The translations under genes and the position numbers were made by a program. Below, piece by piece: positions 44,562 to 45,986 of a stretch of DNA of 64,000 bases (its first letter is position 1; the number at the start of each line of letters is the position of its first letter). The notes beneath the pieces are model-generated. The model saw only the letters and a list, made by a program, of their open reading frames with translations. It was not told the DNA's origin and ran no database searches. This DNA is from an uncultured Gammaproteobacteria bacterium (GTDB lineage Bacteria > Patescibacteriota > Patescibacteriia > UBA9934). The stretch lies in assembly GCA_964344415.1 (NCBI GenBank), contig CAYFMS010000001.1, positions 317,315 to 381,314 on the forward strand. The letters are read 5' to 3'.

Positions 44562-45986
44562 TTGAACAAATGGTATACTTCTACCATGGAATTGCAGCCG
44601 ATTACGGAAAAAAGTTTTTATAAATACTTGAAATGTCCATCATGGCTTTTGCGTGAAAGCGAGCATGGCAAGCCCGATGACGCTCTTTTAGAATTGCTTC
44701 AAGACGAAGGATTGCTCCCTGAAAAAGAGCGAGCATTGCTCAAGGATCGTGAAATGAGCGAGGTTAACCTGGATGACGTAGATGAAGCAGCAGTGAAAAC
44801 ACTCGAATTGATGAAAGAGGGGGTGGCGACCATTTATAAAGGTGTTTTGCAGCATGGAAGGTATATTGGTCGTCCCGATGTATTAGAACGGGTAGAAGGG
44901 AAGTCAGATTTTGGTGATTATTATTATATTGCGGCCGATATCAAGCGGTCGTCTCAATTAAAAAATGAATACAAATTTCAGGGTGTATTTTATGCGGAAT
45001 TGCTCCATCGGTTGCAGGGGATGAAGCCAATTCAGGGATATGTGATTCATGGAAATGGTGAAATTGATAATTATTTTATTGAAGATTTTGAATCGCAATA
45101 TCATTTAACGCTCGACGAAATTGAACGCATTCTTGATGAAAAGGAAGATGCTATTTTTCTAACCTCTGGTTGCAAGCAATCACCTTGGTTTCATGATTGT
45201 GTCGCGCGCGCAGAGAATTGTCGCAGTCTTTCGCTTTTGAATCGTATTTGGAAGAGTGAGGTCTATTCTTTGCGGAAAATTGGCATTGAAACGATTGATG
45301 ATCTTGCAAATGCTAAGCCAGATATTCTCAAAACAGCTCCGGATTTGACCATGGATAGATCTTATTTTTTGCAGCAGCAGGCCATTTCTTTGGCGGATGG
45401 AAAAATCATCACCATTGGAAATGTGGATTTGCCTGAACCGACAAAAACGGTGCTGGTGATCGATATTGAAACAGATCCTCTGCATGATGCGCATTATATG
45501 TTCGGCGTGCTTGTCGTGGATGGATCGAGCGAAGATTATATTGTATTTACAGCTGAACGCCCCGAGGATGAAGAAGAGAATTGGAATCGATTTGTACAAT
45601 TTTTGCGGCAATATGCCGGATCGCAAATCTATCATTATGGTTGGTATGAAGTAGATGTATTTCGCCGTCTTGTTCAGAAATATGATGCGCCTGACGCGGT
45701 TCAGGATATGTTTGAGGATGACATGGTGGACCTGCTTACGCATATGCGCGGACATGTCATTTTCCCAAGTCCATTCTATTCCTTGAAAGATATTGCAAAA
45801 TTCTTGGGATTTAATTGGCGTATAAAAGATGCTTCAGGGCTCGATTCGATTTTATGGTATGAGAAATGGCTTGAAACGGGCGATCGTTCATTTTTGAAGG
45901 ATATTGAAGAATATAATGAGGATGATGTTCGGGCGACATGGTTTGTTCGCAATTGGGTGGTGAATCACTATGAAAGCAAGAATTAA
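44562..45986 (+). CDS. Cas4-like Fe-S PD-(D/E)xK nuclease fused to a C-terminal RNase-H-like (TM0106-type RecB-family) domain
   Basis: N-terminal YKYLKCPSW, then GRPDVLE...YYIAADIKRS (D-E/D-K) and the Cys cluster GCKQSPWFHDCVARAENC. The C-terminal half has VLVIDIETD...YHYGWYEVDVF (RNase-H-like acidic core). Transcribed divergently from array 2. Confidence 0.65.
   Translation: MNKWYTSTMELQPITEKSFYKYLKCPSWLLRESEHGKPDDALLELLQDEGLLPEKERALLKDREMSEVNLDDVDEAAVKTLELMKEGVATIYKGVLQHGRYIGRPDVLERVEGKSDFGDYYYIAADIKRSSQLKNEYKFQGVFYAELLHRLQGMKPIQGYVIHGNGEIDNYFIEDFESQYHLTLDEIERILDEKEDAIFLTSGCKQSPWFHDCVARAENCRSLSLLNRIWKSEVYSLRKIGIETIDDLANAKPDILKTAPDLTMDRSYFLQQQAISLADGKIITIGNVDLPEPTKTVLVIDIETDPLHDAHYMFGVLVVDGSSEDYIVFTAERPEDEEENWNRFVQFLRQYAGSQIYHYGWYEVDVFRRLVQKYDAPDAVQDMFEDDMVDLLTHMRGHVIFPSPFYSLKDIAKFLGFNWRIKDASGLDSILWYEKWLETGDRSFLKDIEEYNEDDVRATWFVRNWVVNHYESKN

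What the first reader, a model, noticed from the sequence alone, without database searches (positions are those of the whole stretch)
44562..45986. Cas4-like Fe-S nuclease fused to an RNase-H-like domain, divergent from the CRISPR leader promoter
The N-terminal half carries the Cas4/AddB-type PD-(D/E)xK motifs and a four-Cys cluster, with one N-terminal Cys and C-x9-C-x6-C. The C-terminal half, VIDIETD...YHYGWYEVDVF, resembles the RNase-H-like domain of TM0106-type RecB-family nucleases. Its position next to the array, separated only by an atatccgatat/atatcggatat inverted repeat at 44521-44557, suggests co-regulation. It may serve as the adaptation or interference nuclease of this minimal locus.
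Basis: partly seen in the sequence, partly recalled or inferred. Interest (0 to 1): 0.6.

Follow-up and report, generated by a model that had tools for sequence, protein, structure and literature searches.

The report
Resident repair-type nuclease beside inserted CRISPR
The gene is an ordinary member of a widespread, already catalogued two-domain nuclease family (TM0106/TIGR03491) that sits in its usual chromosomal place; a small CRISPR module was inserted next to it, so the adjacency is not evidence of a CRISPR function.

Summary
The ORF is real. Its likely start is ATG 44586, giving 466 aa. The domain reading is correct: an N-terminal Cas4/AddB-like PD-(D/E)xK nuclease with four conserved Cys, a helix-hairpin-helix linker, and a C-terminal DEDD 3'-5' exonuclease (Pfam RNase_H_2). 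It is a full-length member of NCBIfam TIGR03491, the TM0106 family RecB-like putative nuclease (E 4.9e-101).

The CRISPR link is not supported:
- In Uhrbacteria relatives, including the closest (69% identity), the order LexA-MetK-...-PPIase-TM0106-small ORF-...-PyrH is conserved. PPIase and TM0106 are often 3-300 nt apart.
- In the window, about 3.4 kb (array, Cas12f-like effector, short Cas1, array) lies in that gap.
- None of 80 TM0106 loci from other species (1.24 Mb) has an array, this Cas1 or this effector.
- The two long contigs carrying the same effector-Cas1 module hold it at other genomic sites, with no TM0106 within 10 kb.
- The gene keeps an ancestral extended -10 box 6 nt before its ATG.

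The 13-nt inverted repeat is real but unique, and its function is unknown. Verdict: a known family, most likely a DNA-end-processing or repair nuclease. Interest is low. The neighbouring CRISPR module deserves its own look.

The parts
44586..45986 (+). TM0106-family (TIGR03491 / COG2251 short form) nuclease gene, 466 aa plus stop.
   Evidence: (P0001, 100% identical 466-aa database entry)
44586..45230 (+). N-terminal Cas4/AddB-like PD-(D/E)xK nuclease domain, about aa 1-215. It carries the four Cys (C17, C196, C205, C212), P97-D98, D118-x-K120 and Q132-x3-Y136.
45231..45440 (+). Helical linker with a helix-hairpin-helix-like segment, about aa 216-285.
   Evidence: Weak Pfam HHH_5 match, E 0.026, below the cutoff; PF14520 is precomputed for homolog P0055; helices 223-271 in the model
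45441..45983 (+). C-terminal RNase-H-like DEDD (Y-x3-D type) 3'-5' exonuclease domain, about aa 286-466. D293, E295, D297, H350, E355, D382, Y443 and D447 are invariant.
44571..44579 (+). Extended -10-like box TGgTATACT, ending 6 nt before the ATG. This is the gene's own, ancestral promoter element and implies a leaderless or near-leaderless mRNA.
   Evidence: The same TATAAT/TATACT box 5-8 nt before the start codon in about 30 Uhrbacteria relatives without CRISPR. The consensus scan did not call it because there is no -35 hexamer.
44519..44559 (.). Perfect 13-nt inverted repeat, CAATATCCGATAT-N15-ATATCGGATATTG, between the array B promoter and the nuclease -10 box. Function unknown. It lies in the junction left by the insertion.
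   Evidence: motif not enriched in the window; absent from relatives and from other module copies
44255..44505 (-). NEIGHBOUR, not part of the gene. Array B promoter (TTGACA 44504-44499, TAGCGT 44481-44476) and a roughly 230-nt structured, tracrRNA-like leader. A 93% identical copy is at 41398-41648.
   Evidence: (D2)
43852..44254 (-). NEIGHBOUR. CRISPR array B: 5 full 40-nt repeats plus 1 degenerate repeat, spacers of 31-32 nt, followed by a terminator at 43863-43842 on the - strand.
43095..43799 (-). NEIGHBOUR. Short Cas1 of 234 aa. It aligns from position 85 of the Pfam Cas1 model, so the N-terminal domain is missing.
   Evidence: similarly short (226-233 aa) in L088 and L090
41732..43021 (-). 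NEIGHBOUR. 429-aa Cas12f/TnpB-like effector (PADLOC Cas12_x1, CAS-V-F).
41209..41648 (-). NEIGHBOUR. CRISPR array A (3 repeats, the first degenerate) with its own copy of the leader and promoter. The left edge of the roughly 3.4-kb insertion lies after the PPIase stop at 41160.

Best explanation
The gene encodes a resident, vertically inherited member of the TM0106 family of two-headed nucleases. It has a Cas4/AddB-like PD-(D/E)xK domain whose four conserved Cys should hold an Fe-S cluster, a helix-hairpin-helix linker, and a PolB-exo/MrfB-like DEDD 3'-5' exonuclease domain.

Most likely (inferred, not shown) it processes DNA ends or damaged DNA as part of general repair or recombination. The N-terminal domain would cut or resect 5' strands or flaps, and the C-terminal domain would trim 3' ends. 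It is transcribed from its own ancestral extended -10 promoter as a leaderless mRNA.

Its position next to a CRISPR array reflects a roughly 3.4-kb type V-F-like module (array, short Cas1, Cas12f-like effector, array) inserted between it and the upstream PPIase gene. It is not a component of that CRISPR system.
For: Family membership:
- Full-length TIGR03491 hit, 338.9 bits against a cutoff of 97.45, and PF13482.
- Catalytic and Cys residues are conserved in 20 homologs.
- The architecture was already described as COG2251/PF13482 plus DUF83 by Majorek et al. 2014 (PMC3985635).

The family is large:
- 1233 50%-identity cluster representatives at E<=1e-30, and 4108 at E<=1e-10.
- At least 578 hits among one-genome-per-species contigs.

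The gene is resident:
- LexA-MetK-hyp-hyp-PPIase-TM0106-small ORF-...-holin-PyrH is conserved in relatives at 60-69% identity.
- A PPIase homolog lies upstream on the same strand in 37 of 80 loci, within 300 nt in 17 of them.
- The closest relative has only a 48-nt gap.
- The window carries the same flanks with the CRISPR module in that gap.
- GC is higher across the module, 0.465-0.485 against 0.43-0.44 in the flanks.

No CRISPR link:
- No array, no homolog of this Cas1 and no homolog of this effector in 80 loci totalling 1.24 Mb.
- The effector-Cas1 module homologs on long contigs lie between HisRS and S21/YqeY (L088) and between a BNR protein and LeuRS (L090), with no TM0106 gene within 10 kb.
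- Cas4 profiles match only at E 0.005-0.008, 14-15 bits.

Own promoter: a TATAAT/TATACT box sits 5-8 nt before the ATG in about 30 relatives and in the window.

Repair flavour of the neighbourhood:
- DinB and LexA lie upstream, and XseA/XseB lie downstream in relatives.
- In L063 a LexA homolog ends 65 nt upstream on the same strand.
- The closest characterised relative of the C-terminal domain, MrfB, is a DNA-repair exonuclease (PMC11194089).
Against: - No member of the family has been characterised biochemically in anything I could find. The repair role and the strand polarities are inferred from domain relatives.
- No PDB relative is detectable by sequence.
- Distant long-form homologs (about 1100 aa, 28-30% identity) occur on 77 plasmids. 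In the two inspected they sit next to WYL, SbcCD-like and E1/E2-like genes. So some branches of the family may work in defence rather than housekeeping repair.
- Adjacency to one particular gene in a 768-kb genome is a priori unlikely. Comparative data argue it is coincidence, but they cannot prove it for this one genome.
- A trans-acting role cannot be excluded by genomics alone.
Confidence: 0.8

Rival explanations
1. CRISPR accessory. The nuclease acts with the adjacent minimal type V-F-like locus. It would be either a Cas4/DnaQ-type prespacer trimmer for a Cas1 that has no Cas2 or Cas4, or the DNA-cutting partner of an effector that seems to lack RuvC residues. The inverted repeat would co-regulate the two.
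For: - The gene is adjacent to and divergent from the array B promoter.
- It has a Cas4-like fold plus a DEDD exonuclease, the two activities known to trim prespacers in other systems (hits include Cas4-Cas1-Cas2 complexes 7mi4 and 8d3l, and Cas1:Cas2-DEDDh 8fyc).
- The locus has no cas2 or cas4, and its Cas1 lacks the N-terminal domain.
- In the effector alignment the RuvC-I position reads A/S instead of Asp, and there is no RuvC-III or Zn-finger tail.
Against: - The gene was there first. Orthologs occupy the same PPIase-TM0106 slot in genomes without any CRISPR.
- None of 80 homolog loci has an array, this Cas1 or this effector.
- The same module in L088 and L090 has no such gene within 10 kb.
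- The protein does not differ from its orthologs in length or motifs.
- The gene keeps the ancestral promoter.
- The inverted repeat is not found at the other module copies.
Confidence: 0.05
2. Stand-alone defence nuclease unrelated to CRISPR. The gene and the CRISPR module sit together because the PPIase-TM0106 junction is a variable, defence-island-like spot.
For: - Long-form family members on plasmids lie beside WYL regulators, SbcCD-like genes, E1/E2/multiubiquitin genes and a methyltransferase.
- In several relatives the PPIase-TM0106 gap is expanded to 2.9-9 kb by other cargo.
Against: - The short form in Patescibacteria is embedded in a conserved core-gene neighbourhood of MetK, PPIase, PyrH and ribosomal protein genes. 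It appears near-ubiquitous in Uhrbacteria-like genomes, which is not the patchy distribution typical of defence genes.
- No PADLOC defence model matches it, apart from faint Cas4 similarity.
- There are no phage homologs.
- By ORF inspection only, with no domain search run, nothing resembling a defence gene was recognised in the cargo of the expanded gaps.
Confidence: 0.1
3. The inverted repeat is an operator or structural element that belongs to the CRISPR arrays rather than to the nuclease gene. It could be a regulator site upstream of the array promoters, or a scar or hairpin left by the insertion.
For: - It lies 14 nt upstream of the -35 box of the array B promoter.
- The array A copy has a related palindrome, GAGATCCGATCTC, at 41650-41662, next to its -35 box.
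- It is absent from the ancestral PPIase-TM0106 junction.
Against: - It is not conserved upstream of the homologous array promoters in L088 and L090.
- The motif is not enriched in the window: 21 matches against 20.7 expected.
- Its right arm also overlaps the -35 position of the nuclease promoter, so it cannot be assigned to either side.
Confidence: 0.4

Closest known systems
TM0106 family RecB-like putative nuclease (NCBIfam TIGR03491; COG2251 'predicted nuclease, RecB family'; cluster F.13 of Majorek et al. 2014)
   Same: Full-length match far above the curated cutoff. Same three-part architecture and similar length. Same conserved Cys, PD-(D/E)xK and DEDD residues. Orthologs at 48-69% identity are already named this way in NCBI records.
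   Different: Nothing of note; it is a typical short-form member. Long forms (about 1100 aa, with added ATPase/helicase regions) exist in Proteobacteria.
Cas4 (CRISPR-associated PD-(D/E)xK Fe-S nuclease)
   Different: - Sequence profiles for Cas4 barely register: E 0.005-0.008, no domain passes, and there is no Pfam Cas4/PDDEXK hit.
- Cys spacing is C-x8-C-x6-C; from my own knowledge the usual Cas4/AddB spacing is C-x2-C-x5-C.
- It is fused to an exonuclease domain.
- It has no conserved link to cas1, cas2 or arrays.
MrfB/YprB and family B polymerase proofreading domains (PF13482 / DEDD 3'-5' exonucleases)
   Different: MrfB is described as DEDDh and works with the helicase MrfA. Here motif III reads Y-N-E-D-D (Y-x3-D type), there is no partner helicase gene nearby, and the domain is fused to a Cas4-like nuclease.
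AddB / RecB / Dna2 nuclease domains
   Different: There is no helicase or translocase domain in this short form, so it cannot be a processive resection machine on its own.

Membership tests
TM0106 family RecB-like nuclease (TIGR03491) | Whole-protein HMM score above the curated cutoff, covering the whole model | tested here: met
   338.9 bits against a cutoff of 97.45, E 4.9e-101. Residues 32-465 (474-aa frame) align to model positions 24-461 of 462.
TM0106 family RecB-like nuclease (TIGR03491) | C-terminal RNase_H_2 (PF13482) exonuclease domain with conserved acidic residues | tested here: met
   PF13482, 126.6 bits against a cutoff of 22. D293, E295, D297, E355, D382, Y443 and D447 are invariant in 20 homologs. 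Fold confirmed.
TM0106 family RecB-like nuclease (TIGR03491) | N-terminal Cas4-like PD-(D/E)xK domain with four Cys | tested here: met
TM0106 family RecB-like nuclease (TIGR03491) | Orthologous position in the genome (conserved neighbourhood in the clade) | tested here: met
   PPIase upstream and small ORF/PyrH downstream, as in relatives.
Cas4 (CRISPR-associated) | Significant match to Cas4 sequence profiles | tested here: not met
   PADLOC Cas4b E 0.0049 and Cas4 E 0.008, 14-15 bits, with no stretch passing. No Cas4/PDDEXK family in Pfam at E<=0.1.
Cas4 (CRISPR-associated) | Evolutionarily conserved linkage to cas1/cas2 and CRISPR arrays | tested here: not met
   None of 80 homolog loci (1.24 Mb) has an array, this Cas1 or this effector. 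The relatives' contigs with Pfam annotation show no cas genes.
Cas4 (CRISPR-associated) | RecB-like fold with a four-Cys metal cluster | tested here: met
Component of the adjacent type V-F-like CRISPR module | Travels with the effector-Cas1-array module in other genomes | tested here: not met
   L088 and L090 carry array-effector-Cas1-array at unrelated sites, with no TM0106 homolog within 10 kb. The shorter contigs L089, L091 and L092 show none either.
Component of the adjacent type V-F-like CRISPR module | Shared regulation (common operator or promoter) with the array | tested here: inconclusive
   A unique 13-nt inverted repeat lies between the two divergent promoters. It is not conserved anywhere else, and the gene keeps its ancestral -10 box. 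There are no expression data.
DEDD 3'-5' exonucleases (DnaQ-like superfamily) | Exo I (DxE), Exo II and Exo III (Y/H-x3-4-D) acidic motifs on an RNase H-like fold | tested here: met
   D293-I-E295, E355/D382 and Y443-x3-D447 are invariant. Fold matches to PolB exonuclease domains, MrfB, ExoI, the epsilon subunit and TREX. Enzymatic activity was not testable.

The most novel reading that the evidence does not exclude
In this lineage the resident TM0106 nuclease may have been recruited in trans by the newly arrived, stripped-down CRISPR module, which has a short Cas1, no Cas2 or Cas4, and an effector that appears to lack RuvC-I and RuvC-III residues. It would supply the 5' (Cas4-like) and 3' (DEDD) prespacer trimming, or the DNA cutting that the effector may be unable to do. 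The unique inverted repeat between the two promoters would couple their expression.
Probability: 0.04. Interest if true: 0.6.

Novelty: already known. Interest (0 to 1): 0.14.

Why it matters
As it stands, the finding matters little. It adds one more member to a catalogued but uncharacterised nuclease family, and it shows how an inserted CRISPR module can create a misleading "guilt by association".

Two things are useful. First, the family is large (thousands of cluster representatives) and appears common in Uhrbacteria-like Patescibacteria. It keeps intact catalytic motifs in both domains, yet no member has been studied experimentally. It is therefore a reasonable candidate for the DNA-end-processing enzyme of these reduced genomes. 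Second, the neighbouring module is rare, with only 9 proteins in a 5.8-billion-protein database. It has several unusual features and should be assessed as a finding of its own.

Tried and rejected
- PDB sequence searches for the nuclease and the effector profile gave only noise.
- A literature search for 'TM0106' returned unrelated corrosion papers. 'Cas14 + Uhrbacteria' returned nothing. The Cas4 phylogenomics paper does not treat this family.
- My k-mer array scan flagged L008 and L010. Inspection showed a plain 54-nt tandem repeat and a coding 60-nt repeat, not CRISPRs.
- I tested whether the repeat arm ATATC[C/G]GATAT is a regulon motif. It is not enriched: 21 matches at up to 2 mismatches against 20.7 expected.
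- The similarity of the repeat arm to a stretch inside cas1 (43488-43501, 13 of 14 nt) is at chance level by my own estimate, given the number of comparisons.
- The sigma-70 consensus scan found no promoter in 44506-44585. The conserved -10 box emerged only from comparison with relatives.
- An Rfam scan of 41000-44700 gave only sub-threshold noise.
- I checked whether the expanded PPIase-TM0106 gaps in L018, L024, L030, L038 and L039 hold defence or cas genes. No arrays were found and nothing was recognisable by ORF inspection. I ran no domain search on those ORFs.
- Not attempted: spacer-target searches, and genome-wide co-occurrence of the module with TM0106, because only ±10 kb of each locus is available.
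Full report
**1. What is at 44562-45986**

The + strand has an open frame of 474 aa starting at TTG 44562. An identical 466-aa protein starting at ATG 44586 is in the public collection (P0001). It lies on a 768,188-bp ENA metagenome contig, ERZ930061 k127_100043, from which the window evidently comes. Homolog N-termini align with the ATG start, so I take the gene as 44586-45986.

Pfam finds RNase_H_2 (PF13482) over the C-terminal third (E 1.2e-36) and a sub-threshold HhH match in the middle. 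NCBIfam places the whole protein in TIGR03491, 'TM0106 family RecB-like putative nuclease': E 4.9e-101, 338.9 bits against a cutoff of 97.45, covering model positions 24-461 of 462.

**2.

- The protein has exactly four cysteines: C17, C196, C205 and C212.
- C17 is invariant and the other three are at least 90% conserved among 20 homologs of 48-68% identity.
- P97-D98, D118-x-K120 and Q132-x3-Y136, the RecB/Cas4-type motifs, are conserved.
- So are D293-x-E295, D297, H350, E355, D382 and Y443-N-E-D-D447 in the exonuclease half.

This architecture is not new. Majorek et al. 2014 list COG2251/PF13482 proteins carrying a DUF83 (PD-(D/E)xK) domain and predict 3'-5' exonuclease activity (PMC3985635).

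**3. How common the family is**

- A profile of the 20 homologs finds 7425 representatives of 50%-identity clusters at E<=0.001, 4108 at E<=1e-10 and 1233 at E<=1e-30. Most are 450-500 aa long.
- The nearest relatives are nearly all Patescibacteria, many labelled Candidatus Uhrbacteria and already named 'TM0106 family RecB-like putative nuclease'.
- There is no phage homolog.
- 77 plasmids carry distant homologs at 28-30% identity. The two inspected are about 1100 aa long and lie beside WYL, SbcCD-like or E1/E2-like genes.

**4. The decisive test: gene neighbourhood**

In relatives at 60-61% identity (P0006, P0027) the order is DinB, LexA, MetK, two hypothetical genes, PPIase, TM0106, a small ORF, a C39-like peptidase, XseA, XseB, a holin-like gene, PyrH. 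Only 18-29 nt separate PPIase from TM0106. The closest relative known (P0002, 69% identity) has PPIase, then 48 nt containing a terminator and a TATACT box, then TM0106.

The window has the same flanks: DinB, LexA, MetK, two hypotheticals and PPIase at 40495-41160 on one side; a small ORF, holin and PyrH on the other. Between PPIase and TM0106 lie about 3.4 kb holding two CRISPR arrays, a 429-aa effector and a 234-aa Cas1, all on the opposite strand. GC is higher over this stretch, 0.465-0.485 against 0.43-0.44 on either side.

Across 80 species-level loci, a PPIase homolog lies upstream on the same strand in 37. The gap is at most 300 nt in 17 and at most 1 kb in 26. The nuclease gene is therefore the resident and the CRISPR module is the newcomer.

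**5. Is the family ever CRISPR-linked?**

I scanned the 80 loci (1.24 Mb, up to 10 kb on each side) with a k-mer array detector that recovers both arrays of the window. Two candidates appeared, and both proved to be ordinary tandem or coding repeats. tblastn with the window's Cas1 and effector found nothing in any of the 80 loci. The detector would miss two-repeat or degenerate arrays, and tblastn would miss very divergent Cas1. However, the Pfam-annotated contigs also show no cas genes.

**6. The reverse test**

The effector has only eight relatives in the 5.8-billion-protein collection. The two on long contigs carry the same unit (array, effector, short Cas1, array) at unrelated places. One lies between HisRS and S21/YqeY (L088) and the other between a BNR-repeat protein and LeuRS (L090). 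Neither has a TM0106 homolog within 10 kb. Short contigs add nothing contrary. The module moves without the nuclease.

**7. Regulation**

The inverted repeat is real and stronger than reported: perfect 13-nt arms at 44519-44531 and 44547-44559, folding at -17.5 kcal/mol with z -4.0 and -6.2. Its meaning is open.
- It is absent from the ancestral junction.
- It is absent from the homologous array promoters of L088 and L090.
- Its half-site is not enriched in the window.
- A related palindrome, GAGATCCGATCTC at 41650-41662, sits next to the second array's promoter.

Against co-regulation, the nuclease gene keeps an extended -10-like box, TGgTATACT at 44571-44579, 6 nt before its ATG. The same TATAAT/TATACT box lies 5-8 nt before the start codon in about 30 relatives that have no CRISPR. 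This suggests a conserved promoter of its own and a leaderless mRNA. The array promoters (TTGACA, 17 nt, TAnnnT) lie inside the duplicated array units and are conserved in all copies aligned with their upstream flank (six of the seven in A3).

**8. Most likely function**

What is shown: membership in the family, intact catalytic and Cys residues in both domains, both folds, and a conserved core-genome position.

What is inferred: a role in processing DNA ends or lesions, with the Cas4/AddB-like domain acting on 5' strands or flaps and the DEDD domain trimming 3' ends.

Support for the inference is circumstantial:
- The characterised relatives of each domain work in repair or end processing (AddB, Dna2, Cas4; MrfB, PMC11194089).
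- The neighbourhood contains DinB and LexA and, in relatives, XseA/XseB.
- In L063, a Magasanikbacteria MAG, a LexA homolog ends 65 nt upstream on the same strand.

I give this reading 0.8. A CRISPR accessory role gets 0.05, and a CRISPR-independent defence role gets 0.1; the latter is suggested only by the plasmid long forms.

**9. Comparison with known families**

The protein is a member of TIGR03491/COG2251; all features tested are met.

It works like, but is not, a Cas4:
- The fold and the four Cys are shared.
- Cas4 profiles give only E 0.005-0.008.
- The Cys spacing differs from the usual Cas4/AddB pattern (my own knowledge).
- The defining linkage to cas genes is absent.

Novelty: already known. 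Interest: low.

**10. Things seen on the way**

The neighbouring CRISPR module is the unusual object here.
- The effector matches PADLOC model 'Cas12_x1' (CAS-V-F, E 1.3e-103). A model (pLDDT 86.6) folds like TnpB and Cas12f (Foldseek TM about 0.55-0.6; 8h1j, 8j12; also a structure titled dCas12f, 9n9c).
- In the nine-member alignment the RuvC-I position reads A/S-L-G rather than D-x-G. The protein ends without a Zn finger or RuvC-III motif. This suggests a nuclease-inactive or rearranged effector, of a kind noted for some Cas12f branches (PMC10691335). It is an inference from motif layout, not a superposition.
- The Cas1 lacks the N-terminal domain in all three genomes (226-234 aa), and there is no cas2 or cas4.
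- In the window and in L090 each array has its own promoter and a conserved, structured roughly 230-nt leader. In L088 the upstream array has the promoter but a shorter leader, and a third array copy was aligned without its upstream flank. RNAalifold predicts 56 pairs, 20 with compensatory changes. Two leader segments pair with the 3' half of the first repeat, so the leader looks like a tracrRNA transcribed in one piece with the array.
- Gene order is cas1-effector in the window but effector-cas1 in L088 and L090.

Noticed in passing
window 41732-43021 (-): 429-aa Cas12f/TnpB-like effector (PADLOC Cas12_x1, CAS-V-F, E 1.3e-103) with only 8 relatives among 5.8 billion proteins. In the 9-sequence alignment the RuvC-I position is A/S-L-G (no Asp), and the protein ends without a Zn finger or RuvC-III motif, so it may be nuclease-inactive. 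It folds like TnpB/Cas12f; Foldseek also hits a 'dCas12f' structure, 9n9c..
   Followed up: partly
window 43095-43799 (-); L088 6670-7371; L090 11399-12079: Short Cas1 (226-234 aa) that aligns only from about position 85 of Cas1 models, so it lacks the N-terminal domain. The short length recurs in three genomes. By my reading of the window sequence, motifs resembling the catalytic Glu, His and Asp/Glu are present. No cas2 or cas4 in any of the loci.
   Followed up: partly
window 44255-44505 and 41398-41648 (-); L088 and L090 equivalents: In the window and L090 each CRISPR array has its own promoter (TTGACA-17-TAnnnT) and a conserved, structured roughly 230-nt leader, duplicated at 93% identity within the window. 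In L088 the leader is shorter or was aligned without its flank. RNAalifold gives 56 pairs, 20 with compensatory changes. Leader segments GUAGC and ACCACUCCU pair with the 3' half of the first repeat, so it looks like a tracrRNA co-transcribed with the array. There is no Rfam match..
   Followed up: partly
window 41161-44560 compared with L088 4760-8200 and L090 9380-12660: The array-cas-array unit sits at three unrelated chromosomal sites in three genomes. Gene order is cas1-effector in the window but effector-cas1 in the other two. L088 has a third tandem array unit. No terminal repeats or integrase were seen, so how the unit moves is unknown.
   Followed up: no
window 44571-44579; about 30 loci among L008-L045: TM0106 genes of Uhrbacteria-like genomes carry a strong (often TG-extended) TATAAT/TATACT box 5-8 nt before the start codon. 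This implies leaderless transcripts, even where the upstream PPIase gene ends only tens of nt away.
   Followed up: partly
window 53072-53111: Another pair of palindromic sites, TTAAGTCCGACTTAA-N10-TTAAGTCGGACTTAA (perfect 15-nt arms), in an intergenic region. It has the same two-site architecture as the repeat at 44519-44559 but a different sequence.
   Followed up: no
window 6651-6670 and 61405-61424; L088 4560-4625: GC-rich palindromes of the form CCTGCCTGCCGGCAGGCAGG recur in the window, and a related, longer palindrome is in L088. This may be a REP-like element shared among these Patescibacteria.
   Followed up: no
L095 (NZ_CP101284.1) and L096 (NZ_CP046254.1): Long-form (about 1100 aa) TM0106-family proteins on proteobacterial plasmids lie next to multiubiquitin/E2/E1(ThiF) genes or WYL + SbcCD-like + methyltransferase genes. 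This is a defence-island-like context that differs from the core-gene context of the short form.
   Followed up: partly
L018, L024, L030, L038, L039 (between PPIase and TM0106): In several relatives the PPIase-TM0106 gap is expanded to 2.9-9 kb by unrelated ORFs, so this junction may be a recurrent insertion spot. No arrays were found there, and the ORFs were not scanned against domain libraries.
   Followed up: partly
window 26198-26428: A tandem repeat picked up by the array scan (5 copies of a unit containing ACGGACACGGA) inside a GC-rich (0.54-0.55) stretch at 24-28 kb with many overlapping ORFs on both strands. Not examined.
   Followed up: no
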